Origin: Nitrososphaerota archaeon
GTDB taxonomy: Archaea; Thermoproteota; Nitrososphaeria_A; Caldarchaeales; Calditenuaceae
Length of the DNA: 28,750 nucleotides
Reading direction: 5' to 3'
Assembly (NCBI GenBank): GCA_038741355.1
Contig: JAVYLC010000009.1
Location: 1-28,750, forward strand
Position numbers and translations under genes: made by a program. Below the pieces are notes generated by a model, which was given only the letters and a program-made list of their open reading frames with translations, searched no databases and was not told where the DNA came from. Of this stretch, positions 1-4,491 are shown piece by piece (position 1 is the stretch's first letter; every line of letters starts with the position of its first letter).

Positions 1-205
1 CTCGGGGGTAGCCGTGCGTGCTGCCACCCCTACCCCCACTCAGGTGTTGCCGTTTGGGGGCTGCGCCGCACGTGTGAGCCCGGGTGGGCCATTTGAGGCT
101 TGAAGCCCCGCTACAGCCGCCGGCGCTACGTTCCGAGCCCCCATTCAGGCGCTGCCGTCTGGAGGGTTAGGGCGCCGCGCACAACGGCCGGGGGCGGGGA
201 CGGCA
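1..205. repeat. Two diverged tandem copies of a GC-rich unit of about 105 nt. The array may continue upstream of the window.
   Basis: The core 25-mer at 33-57 (cccccactcaggtgttgccgtttgg) matches 138-162 (cccccattcaggcgctgccgtctgg) at 21/25 positions, and all 4 differences are C/T transitions. Further colinear matches are gcgccgcac (63-71) versus gcgccgcgcac (172-182) and gcccgggtgggcc (78-90) versus ggccgggggcgggg (186-199). Confidence 0.55.
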
Positions 206-701
206 ACTCCTGATGAATACTACTGATGGTCTGCTTGACGACGTTCTCCACATCCATTCCACTTATGTTTCCCGGACACCATGGGGGTGTTTGAGAAAGG
301 TTTGTGGATGGATGCTGGAGACACGAAATGATCTTCAGAGGTTTCCGAAGACAATCCATGACGACCACAGAGTGGAGGTGTGGGGTCCTCCACCCCTCTC
401 CGAGCAGCTGAGGCTGACCCGGAGATGGTGACGGCCATTGGGAGAGGACAGAATACACCAGACAATCGATACATAGCTGTTTATGCGAATCCCAACCCAC
501 ATAGGCCCCGATAGGAGGTCCCGGCCGGAGGCATGCTCTCCGGCGGGGTTTCCCTCCTGTCGGGGAGCACGGCGGCCGAGGCCTCCCGGGAATGCCATGT
601 CCTCTGACGTGGCTGCCTCCTCGGAGGCCCGGGGGGCTTTGTTTGGGGAGGGCCCACGTGGTGGGGAGGGGCGATGCCCCGCCACGGACGAGCCGCCATG
701 C

Positions 702-1721
702 ATGGTCGTCTGCCCGGACGGCCATGCAAGTGGGGGGGTGAGAAGAAGAGGCCCATACCTTCCCAGAGATCTGAGGATTAGACTATACGAAGAGGTTAGG
801 AGGTTAAGAGGGCAGGGATTGTCGTATAATGAAATCATCGACTCGGTGAGGAAGAGTTATGGCGTTGTATTAGGGAGAGGCCAGATTAGCGAGTGGGTTA
901 GGGGAATACGCAGCCCATACAACGGCGTACGAATACCCTCGATAGGGTTTCTAAAACCATGCAGAGAACTTGCATATATTATAGGCGCCGTTGCAGGTGA
1001 TGGATACGTATGGCGGCGACAACGGCCTCGAAAATCATACCACGAAGTGTATGTAGGGTTGAAGGTTAAGGATAGGGAGTTTGCCGAGGAGTTCTCCAGG
1101 TGTCTTGCAGTAGTCTTGAAGAGAGAGCCGCCTAAACCTAGATGGAGGGTCAGACGATTCGTCGTCAAACTAGAAAGTAAGGTCCTCTACGAGCTGCTGA
1201 AGAGGCCTTTAAGGCTGGAGAAGATCAAAAAGTTTGTAGAACACTCTAACCGCTGTAAATCGGCTTTCCTGAGGGGCTTCTTCGACAGCGAAGGAAGCGT
1301 AGATGAGGACGGAGAAGTAACAGTCTGTAATACCGACTTAGCCCTGCTTGGATACGTCAAACAACTTCTCTCTTCTCTAGGGATAGAGACGACAGGACCA
1401 CATCTTTACTCAAGGCGTGGAACGGCCTTCAGAGACCCGAGGACGGGAAAAACATATAGGACTAAGAAGGACGCATATGGGTTATATGTTACCGCTGGCT
1501 CTCGGCTGATGTTCTACAATCGCGTAGGATTCACGGTGAGAAGAAAACAGCAGAGGCTGGAGAACTACCTCATAAGGACTGGACGGCTAAAACCCCCAGC
1601 CAACCCACCCCCCATCTCTTCCCAACCACATCATGATCACGATAATAATGTACAAGGTTTGGGGCCGGCCGGATTCGAACCGGCGACCTCCGCCGTACTG
1701 AGGGGCGGGGCTCAAATCTGA
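702..1721 (+). CDS. Free-standing LAGLIDADG (double-motif) homing endonuclease with an N-terminal helix-turn-helix domain. The start is uncertain: ATG 483, ATG 597, ATG 702 and GTG 738 are all in frame.
   Basis: Both LAGLIDADG motifs are present: LAYIIGAVAGDGYV and SAFLRGFFDSEGSV, each with its acidic catalytic residue. An HTH-like segment GLSYNEIIDSVRKSYGVVLGRGQISEWV precedes them. Codon composition becomes protein-like (AGA/AGG-rich, lower GC) only from about 740 onward. The first 70-85 codons of the 483 ORF are P/R/G-rich and look like translated GC-rich non-coding DNA. Confidence 0.8.
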   Translation: MVVCPDGHASGGVRRRGPYLPRDLRIRLYEEVRRLRGQGLSYNEIIDSVRKSYGVVLGRGQISEWVRGIRSPYNGVRIPSIGFLKPCRELAYIIGAVAGDGYVWRRQRPRKSYHEVYVGLKVKDREFAEEFSRCLAVVLKREPPKPRWRVRRFVVKLESKVLYELLKRPLRLEKIKKFVEHSNRCKSAFLRGFFDSEGSVDEDGEVTVCNTDLALLGYVKQLLSSLGIETTGPHLYSRRGTAFRDPRTGKTYRTKKDAYGLYVTAGSRLMFYNRVGFTVRRKQQRLENYLIRTGRLKPPANPPPISSQPHHDHDNNVQGLGPAGFEPATSAVLRGGAQI

Positions 1722-1775
1722 CCCTCGAGCCTCCCCCCGCGTCAGGGCGGCGTCATACCGCTAGACCACGGCCCC
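1660..1775 (-). tRNA. tRNA-Val (anticodon GAC) with a 44-nt canonical intron between positions 37 and 38. CCA is not encoded.
   Basis: The reverse complement reads GGGGCCG TG GTCT AGCGGTA TGAC G CCGCC CTGACG [intron] C GGCGG AGGTC GCCGG TTCGAAT CCGGC CGGCCCC A. The acceptor, anticodon and T stems are perfect, the T-loop is TTCGAAT, and the discriminator is A. Confidence 0.88.
1696..1739 (-). other. tRNA intron (44 nt) bounded by a canonical bulge-helix-bulge splice motif
   Basis: The central 4-bp helix is CTGA (positions 32-35) paired with TCAG. It is flanked by the 3-nt bulges C-G-C (5' site, cut after G37) and T-A-C (3' site, cut before C38). The outer helix is GGGG:CCCC. The intron also has an internal stem GGCTC/GAGCC. 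Confidence 0.75.
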
Positions 1776-1840: not shown

Positions 1841-2731
1841 TTAAAGCACCTTGGCGTGGCAGTCTATCCTAATTTTAGGCAGTTGTGAGAGACTTGTTAG
1901 CCTACCGTAGCCTATTGCCGAGAGGGCCCAGAACCTGTCGTTCACGTTGCAAAGCCAAGCCTCGGTTAGGCCTATTGTTTTCCTCCTAACCGCAAGCCCT
2001 TTTGGATGAATGGGGTAGCTTATAGCATGGTGCCCGACCTCTTCGCGGACCGGGCGCGGCTCACGGCCTATGAATACCTTATACTTTTCGAGAATCTTGG
2101 AGTGGAATTTCCTGAGCCACTGTGTTATCTCGAGTCCGAGTGCTGCAGCTGGCCCTGCCCTCTCTATCACCACCACATTATTCTCATCTTCAAGGACTAG
2201 GGAGAATGCGCCTGTGGTAGAGTTGATGGCGCTTATCCAGAGTGTAGACGGCGTGAGTATCTGGAATTCGTAGAGACTTAGGAGCATCATGCTATCACTC
2301 CGGTGGCATTTAAGACTTCTGAAGGTGTCTGCCCAATCTTCACCCTCCTGTTGAAGGTTCAGCTTGAAAAATTTCAACACACCCGCGCACGTCCAAGCAT
2401 AGGCTATAAAACGGCCACCCTCCACATAACCAGTAATCTTCAGAGCCCTGTGCCCGAATACCTCGGCTTCGTATTTTTTAACGTCTGTCCACTTCTCCGC
2501 TTGTCTACTCTTAATGAGCCTCTCAACCCACTGGAGGAGGCCGATGCCATCATAGTTTTTGGACCTGTCAACTATAAGCTCCACTCGAGGATAACCTTTG
2601 TCGGAGAATATAGAGTAGGAGCTGTGTGGCCCTATCCTCTCCGCGGCGAGCCTTAGGGTCTCAGATGCGAGAAACTCTATGCCACGCCAGCCGATAAGCG
2701 TCTGATTAGCTACATCAGACGTGCTAGACAA
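1841..2731 (-). CDS. Hypothetical soluble protein, 296 aa, with no recognisable domain. It is the last gene of the membrane-protein operon.
   Basis: This is a long ORF with normal composition. Its TTG start overlaps the stop of the upstream gene by 8 nt (TTGTCTAG), which suggests co-translation within the operon. Confidence 0.7.
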   Translation of the reverse strand: MSSTSDVANQTLIGWRGIEFLASETLRLAAERIGPHSSYSIFSDKGYPRVELIVDRSKNYDGIGLLQWVERLIKSRQAEKWTDVKKYEAEVFGHRALKITGYVEGGRFIAYAWTCAGVLKFFKLNLQQEGEDWADTFRSLKCHRSDSMMLLSLYEFQILTPSTLWISAINSTTGAFSLVLEDENNVVVIERAGPAAALGLEITQWLRKFHSKILEKYKVFIGREPRPVREEVGHHAISYPIHPKGLAVRRKTIGLTEAWLCNVNDRFWALSAIGYGRLTSLSQLPKIRIDCHAKVL

Positions 2732-3743
2732 GGCCCATCAAGGTCATAAGCGCGAAGGCAGCGGCCCACGCGGCTCCAGCCCTAATCCTCCCCAACCCAT
2801 ACACCACGTTAACTGCATAAGCTCCTAGGCCCGAAATCCAGAGCCAAGCTAAGGGAGAGAGCACCCTTCTGACATAGGTTAGGGCAACCTCATCGCTCGA
2901 CATCTCCGACAAACCCATTATTGTCGCATCAATATATCTGTAGGTTTCAACCTCGGCGGAGCTCCAGTTCAAGTGTAGTGGGGTGACTTGGGAGATGTTG
3001 AATGGGACGGCTATCCTATCCACACCATTAACCACTGCCTCATTGAGCATCAGCCCCTCAATAGTTATCCTTTGACGGCCATCCTCAAGAGCCTTCCTTT
3101 TTTCAGCATCACTCAAACTTGTGAGGTTTATTCTCAACCCCGCGGGATCTAAGACTTCCGCCTTCAGGACCAAGGCGCGCGCGGCAGGCGCATATATAGC
3201 CGAGCCGTTGGACAGTATATCTTCTCTAACACCCGCCGGGACTTCGACACCTTCATAGATCCCGGTGACGGATAGGTCACGAAAACCAACACCATTCGCC
3301 TCATAGCCATAAACAATAATAGTGGATGGGGGAAGAAGGAGACTGATCAGTGAGCCGATGGCAATGAATATGAAGAGTATGAGGAACCCATTCAGGATAG
3401 ATGAAAGGACAGACAGCAGGTTTCCATTCTTCTTTTTAAGGAAGAATGAGAAGATCCACAGCACTCCGAACAATACGCCTATGGCTAGGAAGAAGTATGC
3501 AATCTGCCGCGCAGCGACAAACCTTATGTCCACCGTGGGCGTTGGAATCTTTTCCCCAAAGATATTGATTATTTCAAGCCTAGGCAGAGATACCAACATG
3601 TCCAAAGTGATACTGGAGGCTACAACGAAGAAGAAGATGAGCATCGCTACCCCTGTACCCGGCCTCTCAGAGATCTCAGAAATCACCTTCCTCGGGCTGT
3701 ATATTATCCTGATGGAGCGCGTGAGCTGGGATGAGATAGACAT
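2724..3743 (-). CDS. Yip1-like polytopic membrane protein with a large extracytoplasmic insert
   Basis: The N-terminal region (SPRKVISEISERPGTGVAMLIFFFVVASSI) resembles the Yip1 domain entry. It is followed by hydrophobic helices, a soluble insert of about 170 aa, and a final TM helix. The ATG lies 13 nt downstream of the preceding stop. Confidence 0.7.
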   Translation of the reverse strand: MSISSQLTRSIRIIYSPRKVISEISERPGTGVAMLIFFFVVASSITLDMLVSLPRLEIINIFGEKIPTPTVDIRFVAARQIAYFFLAIGVLFGVLWIFSFFLKKKNGNLLSVLSSILNGFLILFIFIAIGSLISLLLPPSTIIVYGYEANGVGFRDLSVTGIYEGVEVPAGVREDILSNGSAIYAPAARALVLKAEVLDPAGLRINLTSLSDAEKRKALEDGRQRITIEGLMLNEAVVNGVDRIAVPFNISQVTPLHLNWSSAEVETYRYIDATIMGLSEMSSDEVALTYVRRVLSPLAWLWISGLGAYAVNVVYGLGRIRAGAAWAAAFALMTLMGLV

Positions 3744-3756
3744 GGCAGCGTTACAC

Positions 3757-4491
3757 TTAATCTACCCGCTCCTTGATAAGCCCTTTCGAGAACTCCAAGT
3801 ACCTATTCCTCTCCTCGACAGTTATTGCCCTCCAGATGAGGACCTGCTTTCTGAGATCGTCCGCAAAGAAGTAGGCCTGGGTAGCCCACATCGCGTCTGC
3901 TCCGCTAATCTTTGTCATGATTAGCTCGAAGGAGTATCTCTTTGTGGACTCCTCGTAGATGGAGGCTGTTTCTACGTGCTGGTTTATACCCTGCTCGTAC
4001 GGCGCCAGCGAGACATCCAGCCCCAGCCTCATTTCTCCCTTATCGTTCAATACAGGATGCGTGACGTCCCTCACAGTGTAGCTGGGCTTCTGCGCACCAG
4101 CGCCGACATAATACTCGTAGAGGAAGGCCATGAATGCTGCTGCTTCATCCTTGTTGTCGATGCTAAGGGGGAGTGGGAGTCGCCATACCCCCTGCTTAGG
4201 CTTTGTGGGTGGCTTCCACTTCCTCTCGAGGGAGGGTGTGACCAGCATGGCGGCAATCCTTGATGGGTAAACTGAGGCGAGCATAGCGGCCAATATCACT
4301 ATACCCAGTGAGAGCATTACGAAGATAGAGGCATAGTTAAGCGTATAAGTCTTCGGTAAGATTCCAAATTCGATGAAAGCCCTGTTTAGCACGAACCCGA
4401 TCAGATATCCGACTAGTGCACCTAGCGATGCATAGACGGCAGATTCTACGAAGAAGAGGAAGCTAGAGCCTAGGGGCGGCAAGCCTAGCAC
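3757..4491 (-). CDS. Fragment 4: C-terminal FtsX permease helices plus a cytoplasmic tail domain of about 150 aa with no recognisable function
   Basis: Read upstream in frame, the sequence is KTVGWEIVPALIVIDALNTVINLMGSV*ERRREISVYSVLGLPPLGSSFLFFVESAVYASLGALVGYLIG. This is the classic FtsX (ER.rEI..l..lG) signature. TM helices follow, with a terminal SVYPSRIAAM motif. Confidence 0.75.
   Translation of the reverse strand: MLGLPPLGSSFLFFVESAVYASLGALVGYLIGFVLNRAFIEFGILPKTYTLNYASIFVMLSLGIVILAAMLASVYPSRIAAMLVTPSLERKWKPPTKPKQGVWRLPLPLSIDNKDEAAAFMAFLYEYYVGAGAQKPSYTVRDVTHPVLNDKGEMRLGLDVSLAPYEQGINQHVETASIYEESTKRYSFELIMTKISGADAMWATQAYFFADDLRKQVLIWRAITVEERNRYLEFSKGLIKERVD

What the first reader, a model, noticed from the sequence alone, without database searches (positions are those of the whole stretch)
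1..740. About 740 nt of GC-rich, apparently non-coding, hairpin-dense sequence ending abruptly where the endonuclease coding signal begins
By hand count, 501-560 is about 68% G+C and 781-840 is about 43%. The change occurs near 740. All six frames across 1-740 give overlapping P/R/G/W-rich ORFs, which is typical of non-coding GC-rich DNA. In hyperthermophiles, local GC excess is the classic signature of structural RNA.

Four helices were verified by hand:
- 246-259 pairs with 306-320 (5+8 bp with one mismatch and one bulge).
- That helix encloses an inner hairpin, 275-280 with 286-291.
- 372-378 pairs with 387-393, a perfect 7 bp.
- 525-530 pairs with 538-543, a perfect 6 bp.

I could not match the region to conserved motifs of rRNA, SRP RNA, RNase P RNA or group II domain V. 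It may be one or more undescribed structured RNAs, possibly functionally tied to the adjacent HTH-LAGLIDADG gene as a long structured leader or a cargo RNA of a mobile cassette.
Basis: partly seen in the sequence, partly recalled or inferred. Interest (0 to 1): 0.7.

Follow-up and report, generated by a model that had tools for sequence, protein, structure and literature searches.

The report
Structured RNA leader of mobile endonuclease gene
The GC-rich stretch is mostly a conserved, hairpin-forming RNA leader that buries the start codon of a mobile LAGLIDADG endonuclease gene, and the same undescribed leader also sits in front of an unrelated, IS110/TasR-like (RNA-guided-recombinase-like) gene family in related hot-spring archaea.

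Summary
G+C is high only in 1-210 and 501-740 (72% each, against 53% for the window). Positions 211-500 are average, and the count of perfect hairpins is no higher than in shuffled sequence.

Positions 506-~740 are a real, strand-specific structured element. It folds far better than shuffles (z -5.2). Homologous copies exist in 16 distinct loci, plus 8 near-identical copies of one further locus. It shows covariation: 91% of cells paired against 46-57% in slid controls, and 14 pairs with compensatory changes. It has no Rfam match. Its parts are a long hairpin (506-565) and a hairpin that encloses a conserved, in-frame ATG at 597. The 53 codons after that ATG change like structured RNA rather than protein.

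The same leader precedes a large unannotated protein family whose predicted fold matches TasR and the IS621/ISCro4 bridge recombinases. It is therefore a shared 5' module of mobile genes, not something specific to LAGLIDADG.

Positions 245-505 are conserved in only two relatives. Positions 1-244 show no excess folding and only weak similarity to upstream RNA domains elsewhere.

The most likely function is cis control of translation. A guide-RNA role is not excluded. The host is an Aigarchaeota-like archaeon, not Thermoprotei.

The parts
1..244 (+). GC-rich (72% in 1-210) upstream domain, probably cut by the window start. It is a weak homologue of the structured domain upstream of the leader in other loci.
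   Evidence: No excess folding on either strand. It is absent from the closest relative, L002. Local similarity: 93-217 to L199 (z 7.1), also L206 (z 4.7) and L010 (z 5.9), and 57-108 to L211 (z 6.3). Several consensus helices are kept in alignment A10. Arms 40-53 and 145-159 are both complementary to 199-213.
245..344 (.). Conserved hairpin module.
Evidence: Positions 275-344 are 95.7% identical to L002 701-770, and 270-357 are 74% identical to L006 3278-3365. The inner helix 275-280/286-291 and a 6-bp helix 247-252/303-308 are kept in all three. Found in no other locus. The strand is undecided: 245-505 folds better on the minus strand.
345..425 (.). Lineage-specific insert holding the perfect 7-bp hairpin 372-378/387-393.
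   Evidence: The whole segment is missing from L002 and L006. The hairpin is listed. There is no evidence of conservation.
426..505 (+). A/C-rich linker in front of the leader hairpin. It is shared with L002, with 449-479 identical. An A/T-rich TTTATG lies at 480-485, about 25 nt before 506.
   Evidence: Alignment A1. Comparable A/C-rich, poorly paired linkers precede the block in the other loci. A promoter role is inference only.
506..565 (+). Long leader hairpin. P1 is 506-518 with 553-565 (13 bp).
   Evidence: Arm pairs; present in the MFE structure. Found in 16 distinct loci. P1 cells are 94% paired with only wobble changes. P2 has 7 of 14 pairs with changes on both sides. Spacing between the conserved pieces varies by 5, 7, 12 and 16 nt, which excludes a reading frame.
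566..593 (+). Segments c and d. They contain a repeat of the CGGCGG motif of P2's 3' arm and GGCCTCCCGGGAA with the palindrome TCCCGGGA. Arm 581-590 can pair with 628-637.
   Evidence: These are nearly invariant columns in A4/A7. The arm pair 581-590/628-637 is 90% complementary and is used in the MFE structure. Alternative pairings (b':a', b:c, a:d) appear in the MFE of 6 of 14 homologues.
594..613 (+). Start-codon hairpin: 594-601 pairs with 606-613, and the ATG at 597-599 lies in the 5' arm.
   Evidence: Predicted in 17 of 18 loci. Six of 8 pairs show changes on both sides, and 93% of cells are paired. L010 lost the ATG (ACA) but kept the helix through matching changes. L114 has a G-C/C-G swap.
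597..755 (+). Open, in-frame 53-codon 'leader peptide' region that overlaps conserved hairpins at 658-666/677-685 and 699-710/717-728.
   Evidence: It is in frame with the core in all intact LAGLIDADG relatives, although the length varies from 26 to 116 codons. Differences from L002 by codon position are 15/9/12, with 3 synonymous and 20 non-synonymous changes. The core gives 42/42/75, with 42 synonymous and 70 non-synonymous. Hairpin 699-728 keeps all 12 pairs through 3 double and 2 single changes. The homologous N-terminus of the L103-type protein is predicted to be disordered.
756..1721 (+). HTH-LAGLIDADG endonuclease core. The ORF runs to 1721 and overlaps the tRNA.
   Evidence: Pfam LAGLIDADG_3, E 4e-17. 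183 homologues found, the best at 74% identity. Alignment A3.
1660..1775 (-). tRNA-Val(GAC) with an intron of about 45 nt, lying tail to tail with the endonuclease gene. It marks the right-hand limit of the mobile unit: homology to L002 ends at 1692.
   Evidence: Rfam tRNA, 56 bits. Homology limit. The same arrangement, with many different tRNAs, occurs in 34 of 63 related loci scanned.

Best explanation
Positions 506 to about 740 (possibly starting further upstream) are the sense-strand structured RNA leader of a mobile HTH-LAGLIDADG endonuclease gene. It is a modular 5' cassette with four parts:
- a long imperfect hairpin (506-565);
- a conserved GGCCUCCCGGGAA segment;
- an 8-bp hairpin that encloses the AUG at 597;
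- further hairpins inside the first 50 or so codons.

Those codons encode a Gly/Pro/Arg-rich, probably disordered N-terminal extension, and they are constrained by RNA pairing rather than by protein sequence.

The same cassette heads a second, unrelated family of mobile-element genes whose predicted fold matches IS110 bridge recombinases and TasR. The endonuclease gene therefore either acquired it from such an element or exchanges it with them.

The most likely function is cis control of expression. The start codon is masked, and mutually exclusive pairings between repeated GGAGG/CCUCC and CUCCGGCGG segments could decide whether it is exposed. One example would be making read-through transcripts untranslatable, as in IS10 and IS50. 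Another would be temperature dependence.

Shown: conservation, strand specificity, covariation, the in-frame ATG, and sharing between two gene families.

Inferred: transcription, the switch, and the regulatory role.

Positions 1-505 are a more variable upstream part. Positions 245-344 are conserved in two relatives only, and 1-244 are a diverged, window-truncated copy of an upstream domain seen in other loci.
For: Folding: 500-760 has z -5.2 on the + strand and -2.6 on the - strand.

Homologues of the block were found by nhmmer and by covariance model in 16 distinct loci, plus 8 copies of a further locus. Sense-strand scores are 54-122 bits and antisense scores 19-37 bits.

Pair counts on A9:
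- 91.1% of cells paired, against 46-57% when partners are slid.
- 14 pairs with changes on both sides, against 6.8 +/- 1.6 in shuffles (0 of 500 reach it).
- In the start-codon hairpin, 6 of 8 pairs covary.

The start-codon hairpin is predicted in 17 of 18 loci. It survives loss of the ATG in L010.

Spacings upstream of the ATG are not multiples of three. The ATG is in frame in all intact LAGLIDADG loci.

Positions 597-755 lack a third-position bias. Hairpin 699-728 has 3 compensatory doubles against L002.

The leader is kept across LAGLIDADG proteins only about 50% identical to each other. Selection therefore acts without any recombinase present.

The same leader lies directly upstream of L103-type genes. 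Those proteins match IS110 in NCBIfam at E 7e-6. Their predicted fold matches TasR, ISCro4 and IS621 at E 4e-9 to 1e-7 over the full length.

No Rfam match.
Against: - There are no expression data, so transcription, the 5' end and processing are unknown.
- The pair counts come from an alignment fitted to the model, and several sequences are close relatives.
- P1 shows only wobble-type variation.
- The proposed switch rests on MFE predictions, one compensatory pair in b':a' and a poorly aligned b:c region.
- Most related LAGLIDADG loci (about 75 of 85 fetched) lack the leader, so it is dispensable for the gene family.
- Positions 1-244 show no excess folding.
- Positions 245-505 fold better on the opposite strand.
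Confidence: 0.55

Rival explanations
1. The region is, or descends from, a trans-acting guide-type RNA of an IS110/TasR-like RNA-guided system, that is, bridge-RNA-like or TIGR stem-loop-like. On this reading the RNA is made as a separate, processed molecule that binds a recombinase or nuclease and specifies DNA targets. In the window it would be either a relic left when a LAGLIDADG gene replaced the recombinase gene, or still in use.
For: The homologous leader lies immediately 5' of genes whose predicted fold matches the IS621/ISCro4 bridge recombinases and TasR. That is the position of IS110 bridge RNAs (PMC11208160).

The two-stem layout (P1/P2, then a second helix around the AUG hairpin) recalls the description of a bridge RNA as 'a single two-stem unit' (PMC12045711).

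Several relatives carry 4-6 copies of a locus-specific 12-17-nt motif in hairpin arrays upstream. This recalls the TIGR stem-loop arrays described in PMC12045711.
Against: - The window has no recombinase gene and no repeat array.
- The internal loop of P1/P2 is only 1 nt by 4-8 nt. That is too small for the paired guide segments of a bridge RNA.
- The element overlaps the start codon and the first codons.
- It stays under structural selection next to LAGLIDADG genes that lack any recombinase.
- There is no complementarity of 10 nt or more between the leader and the downstream tRNA junction in 5 loci, although this is a weak test for split guides.
Confidence: 0.17
2. The conserved hairpins act at the DNA level. 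They would be the end structure or recognition site of the mobile unit, for example a target or donor site for the endonuclease or for the IS110-like recombinase, rather than an RNA.
For: Homology between independent copies begins only about 20 nt upstream of the block (L006 against L007). In the P0134 loci the block starts 23 nt after the neighbouring gene. The block therefore sits at the extreme 5' end of the unit.

It contains the palindromes TCCCGGGA and CCATGG. Positions 245-505 fold at least as well on the other strand.
Against: Many conserved pairs are G-U (U-G in 7 of 15 sequences at one P1 pair, and common in P2 and the AUG hairpin). On the other strand these would be A-C mismatches.

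Covariance-model scores are 3-5 times lower on the antisense strand. MFE is -162 on the sense strand against -130 kcal/mol on the antisense strand.

Covariation in hairpin stems has no obvious use for a double-stranded protein-binding site.
Confidence: 0.13
3. Nothing functional beyond a GC-rich, low-complexity N-terminal extension and upstream spacer. The hairpins would be what any GC-rich sequence gives, and the conservation would reflect recent common ancestry.
For: The perfect-hairpin count equals the shuffled expectation. Positions 1-244 have no excess folding. ORFs are open in GC-rich DNA by default. Positions 345-425 are lineage-specific.
Against: - z -5.2 against dinucleotide shuffles for 500-760.
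- Block homologues occur next to proteins as diverged as 50% identity, and next to a different protein family.
- Compensatory changes exceed both controls.
- The helix is retained after loss of the ATG in L010.
Confidence: 0.08

Closest known systems
Fold-back inhibition leaders of insertion sequences (IS10, IS50): structures in read-through transcripts that mask the transposase start site (from general knowledge, not tested here)
   Same: It is a mobile-element gene whose start codon lies inside a conserved hairpin at the 5' end of the unit. Repeated complementary segments allow mutually exclusive pairings.
   Different: This element is much longer (about 100 nt of leader plus about 150 nt of structured coding start). 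It is archaeal and is shared by two unrelated gene families. The transcription start, and therefore the logic of the switch, is unknown.
IS110-family bridge RNA (IS621, ISCro4; PMC11208160)
   Same: It is a structured RNA of 100-250 nt encoded at the 5' non-coding end, directly before the gene. In relatives (L103, L214-L221) that gene encodes a protein with the bridge-recombinase fold. The layout has two stems.
   Different: In the window the gene is a LAGLIDADG endonuclease, not a DEDD recombinase. The internal loops are too small for target and donor guides. The element overlaps the start codon. No guide complementarity was found. The proteins are too diverged to pass the IS110 family thresholds.
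TIGR-Tas stem-loop arrays (PMC12045711)
   Same: The top structural match of the associated protein family is TasR (9mty). Some relatives have arrays of hairpins carrying a locus-specific constant motif.
   Different: There is no 36-nt dual-repeat periodicity. The window has no array at all. Box C/D-like motifs were not established.
HEARO / omega RNA of IS200-IS605 elements and the lariat-capping ribozyme upstream of the I-DirI homing endonuclease gene (from general knowledge)
   Same: These are precedents for a conserved structured RNA physically coupled to a mobile nuclease gene.
   Different: There is no sequence or Rfam match. The partner protein is different, and there is no evidence of catalysis or guiding.
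Archaeal rRNA introns (BHB or group I) carrying LAGLIDADG genes (PMC6125680)
   Same: A LAGLIDADG_3-type gene is embedded in GC-rich structured RNA in a thermophilic archaeon.
   Different: There are no rRNA exons and no intron model match anywhere in the window. The gene abuts a tRNA gene on the opposite strand.

Membership tests
Any Rfam 15 family | Covariance-model score at or above the family's gathering threshold | tested here: not met
   Only the tRNA at 1660-1775 passes. At E <= 10, positions 1-740 give only two sub-threshold microRNA-precursor hits, 25.6 and 24.4 bits against cut-offs of 63 and 53. Nineteen related loci also give only tRNAs.
IS110 bridge RNA | Encoded in the non-coding end next to an IS110-type DEDD recombinase gene | tested here: not met
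   In the window the adjacent gene is HTH-LAGLIDADG. The homologous leader does precede bridge-recombinase-like genes in L103, L100 and L214-L221.
IS110 bridge RNA | Two internal loops carrying guides complementary to target and donor DNA | tested here: inconclusive
   The P1/P2 internal loop is 1 nt by 4-8 nt. No shared stretch of 10 nt or more with the downstream junction in 5 loci. The element ends are not mapped, so split 4-7-nt guides cannot be tested.
TIGR array | [quoted passage not shown] | tested here: not met
   No tandem repeat in 1-800, and no repeated motif in 1-505 beyond an 11-mer pair. Relatives L211, L103, L135 and L010 have 4-6 copies of a constant motif at irregular spacings of 26-93 nt.
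Intron (BHB or group I) with a homing endonuclease ORF | Insertion within an rRNA or tRNA host gene with flanking exons, plus an intron core or bulge-helix-bulge junction | tested here: not met
   No rRNA or group I match in the window. The ORF lies outside the tRNA and on the opposite strand. Homology to L002 ends inside the tRNA 3' half.
Cis-regulatory leader that masks the start codon | Start codon base-paired in a conserved helix supported by covariation | tested here: met
   Helix 594-601/606-613. It is predicted in 17 of 18 loci, and 6 of 8 pairs have changes on both sides.
Cis-regulatory leader that masks the start codon | Transcribed as part of the mRNA, with an effect on translation | not testable with these tools
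   No transcriptome or reporter data are available.
LAGLIDADG homing endonuclease (the adjacent gene) | LAGLIDADG domain above the Pfam threshold | tested here: met
   PF14528, 62.7 bits against a cut-off of 22.5.

The most novel reading that the evidence does not exclude
The leader is an RNA partner rather than a mere regulator. On this reading it is a diverged bridge- or tigRNA-type module that a tRNA-gene-flanking LAGLIDADG element captured from an IS110/TasR-like element and still uses. It might be processed from the mRNA 5' end and bound by the HTH domain to direct or license insertion next to tRNA genes. That would be the first RNA-associated LAGLIDADG system, and a case of a guide-RNA cassette being exchanged between unrelated nuclease families.
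Probability: 0.1. Interest if true: 0.92.

Novelty: new variant of a known kind. Interest (0 to 1): 0.62.

Why it matters
Structured RNAs physically coupled to mobile nuclease genes have repeatedly turned out to be functional partners. Examples are the omega RNAs of IS605 elements, IS110 bridge RNAs and tigRNAs.

Here an undescribed RNA module with covariation support heads two different mobile gene families in thermophilic Aigarchaeota-like archaea:
- a LAGLIDADG endonuclease family that sits next to tRNA genes in many copies;
- a large unannotated family with the bridge-recombinase/TasR fold.

Even if the module is only a translational control element, three things are worth knowing. It would be a rare documented structured leader in archaea. 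It shows that the annotated N-termini of hundreds of these proteins are really RNA structure. And it marks a clade of IS110/TasR-like proteins that current family models miss. If it is more than a regulator, it bears directly on how RNA-guided systems diversify.

Tried and rejected
- **Known RNA families.** Rfam at gathering and E-value thresholds, on the window and 19 related loci, gave only tRNAs.
- **Protein-coding reading of 1-740.** The ORFs have no Pfam hits. Spacings upstream of ATG 597 break any frame.
- **rRNA intron or group I intron.** There are no exons and no model hits. Archaeal group I introns are reported only in rRNA genes (PMC6125680).
- **Integrase-type element with a tRNA att repeat.** L002 has a tRNA 3'-half-like copy after the gene. 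No repeat of the tRNA end occurs in 1-740.
- **Repeats within the window.** Nothing links 1-740 to the rest of the window, and there are no tandem repeats.
- **Recovering the sequence upstream of position 1.** The only other contig carrying the neighbouring gene ends inside the tRNA. The exact ORF is not on record.
- **Metagenome pattern scan.** The pattern was too loose. Of 120 hits, only 5 were real.
- **Viral contigs, phage and plasmid collections.** No match.
- **RNAalifold on the MAFFT alignment.** It gave an alternative fold rather than the long hairpin. This led to the two-state idea but did not settle it.
- **Guide complementarity to the tRNA junction.** None found.
- **Counting perfect hairpins.** This does not separate the region from shuffled sequence.
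Full report
**1. Checking the observation**

The window averages 53.3% G+C (sd 5.7% per 100 nt). The GC excess is not continuous, though. Positions 1-210 and 501-740 are 72% each, while 211-500 is 51.7%. The only comparable stretch in 28.7 kb is the tRNA gene at 1660-1775.

All six frames carry P/R/G-rich ORFs with no Pfam match. The four helices are present. Perfect hairpins are not more frequent than in dinucleotide shuffles, however: 4 against 2.8 +/- 2.1.

Folding energy separates the parts:
- 1-244: not better than shuffles on either strand (z -0.6 and -1.1).
- 245-505: significant on both strands, and better on the minus strand (z -3.3 and -5.7).
- 500-760: strongly structured, and better on the plus strand (z -5.2 and -2.6; -162 against -130 kcal/mol).

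**2. Known families**

Rfam gives nothing in 1-740 at its gathering thresholds. At E <= 10 there are only two sub-threshold microRNA-precursor hits. Phage, plasmid and viral-contig collections have no match.

**3. The gene and its relatives**

The ORF 483-1721 carries a LAGLIDADG_3 domain. Its 183 detected homologues come from Aigarchaeota / Candidatus Caldarchaeum / Nitrososphaerota MAGs, not from Thermoprotei.

A scan of representative genomes returned 80 loci. The family is multi-copy, with more than 20 loci in one MAG (JAVVGN01), and it is often found at contig ends.

In 34 of 63 loci scanned, a tRNA gene lies tail to tail directly after the endonuclease gene, 845-1027 nt from a fixed anchor in the protein. 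At least 14 different tRNA identities are involved. The window's tRNA-Val follows this pattern.

**4. Extent of the unit in the window**

The closest relative is L002 (74% protein identity), which sits in a different gene neighbourhood. It shares DNA with window 245-344 (275-344 at 95.7%) and 426-1692 (82%). It does not share 1-244, and 345-425 is missing from it. Homology ends inside the 3' half of the tRNA.

The mobile or shared unit is therefore about 245-1692, and 345-425 is a lineage-specific insert.

**5. The conserved leader block**

Protein alignments first hinted at it. Distant homologues share 'PPGKAM...DPGPRGEG' upstream of the true core.

At the DNA level, window 506-599 (CCCCGAYAGGAGG ... 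CCUCCUGUCGGGG ... GGCCUCCCGGGAArGCCAUG) recurs in the following loci:
- L002, L006, L007, L010, L028 and L067;
- five metagenome contigs;
- the contigs encoding P0013, P0018, P0031, P0036, P0037 and P0055.

The distances between its conserved pieces differ by 5, 7, 12 and 16 nt. A reading frame upstream of the ATG is therefore excluded.

A covariance model built from 14 sequences finds the same set and nothing else among 94 sources. Sense-strand scores are 54-122 bits and antisense scores 19-37 bits.

On the model alignment of 16 sequences:
- 91.1% of cells form standard pairs, against 46-57% when partners are slid by 1-3 columns.
- 14 of 35 pairs have changes on both sides. Shuffles give 6.8 +/- 1.6, and 0 of 500 reach the observed value.

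Two caveats apply. The alignment is fitted to the structure, and some sequences are close relatives. P1 (506-518/553-565) varies only by wobble. P2 (520-530/538-548) has 7 covarying pairs.

**6. The start codon**

The ATG at 597 ends the block. In every intact LAGLIDADG relative it is in frame with the core, although the distance varies from 26 to 116 codons. It is therefore very probably the start codon.

It lies in the 5' arm of an 8-bp hairpin (594-601/606-613). That hairpin is predicted in 17 of 18 loci and has the strongest covariation, with 6 of 8 pairs changed on both sides. L010 has lost the ATG (ACA) but restored the pairing with UGU. L114 swaps a C-G for a G-C.

The next 53 codons behave like RNA rather than protein. 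Against L002, their differences fall 15/9/12 by codon position, with 3 synonymous and 20 non-synonymous changes. The core shows 42/42/75, with 42 synonymous and 70 non-synonymous.

Hairpin 699-710/717-728 keeps all 12 pairs through three double and two single substitutions, while the encoded peptide changes. Hairpin 658-666/677-685 keeps its pairs through two one-sided changes.

**7. Alternative pairings**

Two pairs of segments repeat each other:
- The c segment after P1 repeats the CUCCGGCGG of P2's 3' arm.
- The d segment (GGCCUCC) repeats the CCUCC of P1's 3' arm.

Single-sequence MFE predictions split accordingly. Eight homologues form the long hairpin. Six pair b' with a', b with c and a with d. 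RNAalifold also chose b':a'.

The b':a' helix is compatible with nearly all sequences and has one G-C to A-U exchange (L010/L114). The c region is too poorly aligned to test. In L135 and L212, where arm b is truncated, c is changed to a sequence that still pairs with it. A two-state leader is therefore plausible but not shown.

**8. The leader is not specific to LAGLIDADG genes**

In L103, L100 and L135, the same block, ATG hairpin and G/P-rich first codons lead into a different ORF.

The L103 protein belongs to a family of more than 620 clusters. All are 'hypothetical', none has a Pfam domain, and many sit on short contigs. It matches NCBIfam's IS110 RNA-guided transposase model only weakly (E 7e-6, 25 bits against a cut-off of 140).

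Its AlphaFold model has mean pLDDT 78, with residues 1-50 disordered. The model matches the following over its full length, at E 4e-9 to 1e-7 and TM 0.5-0.6:
- TasR (9mty);
- ISCro4 (9t56);
- IS621 (8wt6, 8wt9).

In eight contigs carrying a 70%-identical homologue (P0134), the block starts 23 nt after the stop of the preceding primase gene. The minimal unit is therefore the block plus the ORF.

The N-terminal peptide similarity between the two families runs up to a 'GRGS(K)' motif. After that motif, one family continues into the RuvC-like first strand and the other into 'YLPRELR'.

Only about 10 of the roughly 90 LAGLIDADG loci examined have the leader.

**9. Upstream of the block**

*Positions 245-344.* This module is conserved in L002 and L006 only. 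The inner helix 275-280/286-291 and a 6-bp helix 247-252/303-308 are kept.

*Positions 426-505.* This is an A/C-rich linker, identical to L002 over 449-479. A TTTATG in the window, and TTATACAA in L002, lie about 25 nt before the block. That position would suit a TATA box, but this is inference.

*Positions 1-244.* Position 1 is probably inside this domain. Positions 93-217 align to the structured domain 86-207 nt upstream of the block in L199 (z 7.1), and also L206 and L209. Positions 57-108 align to L211 (z 6.3). Several consensus helices of that domain are retained in the window sequence.

*Other relatives.* Some carry 4-6 copies of a locus-specific 12-17-nt motif in hairpin arrays upstream of the block. 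The window does not. In L206, L207 and L209/L210, the GC-rich region is the spacer between the endonuclease gene and a conserved, divergently oriented gene of 375-412 aa of unknown function.

**10. Interpretation**

The best-supported reading is a sense-strand structured leader that masks the start codon of a mobile gene and is shared, as a cassette, by two mobile gene families. Its conservation next to LAGLIDADG genes that have no recombinase argues for a role in expression of whatever gene follows, rather than a role tied to the recombinase.

The position directly 5' of bridge-recombinase/TasR-like genes keeps a guide-type origin or function open. Against that reading:
- the internal loops are small;
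- the element overlaps the start codon;
- no complementarity to the tRNA junction was found.

A DNA-level role is disfavoured by the many G-U pairs and the strand asymmetry. Chance is disfavoured by the z-scores, the cross-family conservation and the covariation.

**11. Verdict**

The finding is real in its core (506-740) and overstated at its edges. The RNA is undescribed in Rfam and in the papers read. I file it as a new variant of a known kind: a structured RNA coupled to a mobile nuclease gene.

Noticed in passing
window 1660-1775 (-), and 34 of 63 related loci scanned (for example L012-L017, L021, L023, L046, L049, L052, L059, L062, L078): Genes of this HTH-LAGLIDADG family lie tail to tail with a tRNA gene at a fixed distance (845-1027 nt from the YLPRELR anchor). 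At least 14 different tRNA identities are involved. This suggests a homing endonuclease family that targets the 3' flank of tRNA genes in general.
   Followed up: partly
window 1660-1721: The endonuclease ORF has no stop before the tRNA and runs 62 nt into the tRNA-Val gene on the opposite strand. ARAGORN reads the 3' part of this intron-containing tRNA as tRNA-Leu(CAG), whereas Rfam aligns the full tRNA with an insert of about 47 nt after the GAC anticodon.
   Followed up: partly
L002 2016-2048 and 2240-2349: In the closest relative, the endonuclease gene is followed by a tRNA 3'-half-like fragment homologous to the window's tRNA-Val 3' half. About 190 nt later comes a complete, different, intron-containing tRNA. 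This looks like the footprint of movement between tRNA loci.
   Followed up: partly
L103 1835-2851, L100 72-1025, L214-L221: This is a family of more than 620 protein clusters. All are 'hypothetical' with no Pfam domain. The predicted fold matches TasR and the IS621/ISCro4 bridge recombinases over the full length. It is a diverged archaeal clade of RNA-guided-recombinase-like proteins that family models miss.
   Followed up: partly
L211 2255-2486; L103 1410-1538; L135 287-498; L010 3258-3518: These loci have arrays of 4-6 GC-rich hairpins that share a locus-specific constant motif (CGCGGGYTCCCCGG, CTGCGGTGCCCGCG, GCTGGAGTTGGCTCCG or GGTGCCATGCGCC) at spacings of 26-93 nt, upstream of the leader block. 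They recall the TIGR stem-loop arrays but lack a regular period.
   Followed up: partly
L206 1031-2158 (-), L210 17-1255 (-), L207 554-1333 (-): A conserved protein of 375-412 aa (50% identity between L206 and L210), with no family match, is encoded divergently upstream of the leader in one subgroup. The downstream neighbours differ, so it may belong to the same mobile unit.
   Followed up: partly
L006 3376-4010: L006 is a composite locus. The leader block and ATG lie 530 nt from the endonuclease core and out of frame with it, and the ORF from the ATG stops after 52 codons. The 385 nt before the core are 99% identical to L003-L005, which lack the block. This looks like one element inserted into the 5' part of another.
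   Followed up: partly
window 1747; L001: A Logan assembly contig carrying the window's genes 1841-4491 ends at window position 1747, inside the tRNA. Related LAGLIDADG genes are very often within 1 kb of a contig end. This is consistent with repeat-induced assembly breaks or strain variation at these sites.
   Followed up: no
window 245-505: This stretch folds better as the minus strand (z -5.7, -108.7 kcal/mol) than as the plus strand (z -3.3, -96.4 kcal/mol). That is the opposite of 500-760. An antisense or divergent transcript, or a DNA-level role, is not excluded.
   Followed up: no
window 40-53, 145-159 and 199-213: Two similar 14-15-nt segments (TCAGGTGTTGCCGT and TCAGGCGCTGCCGTC) are both complementary to one segment, GACGGCAACTCCTGA. 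This gives mutually exclusive long-range pairings within the GC-rich 5' block.
   Followed up: no
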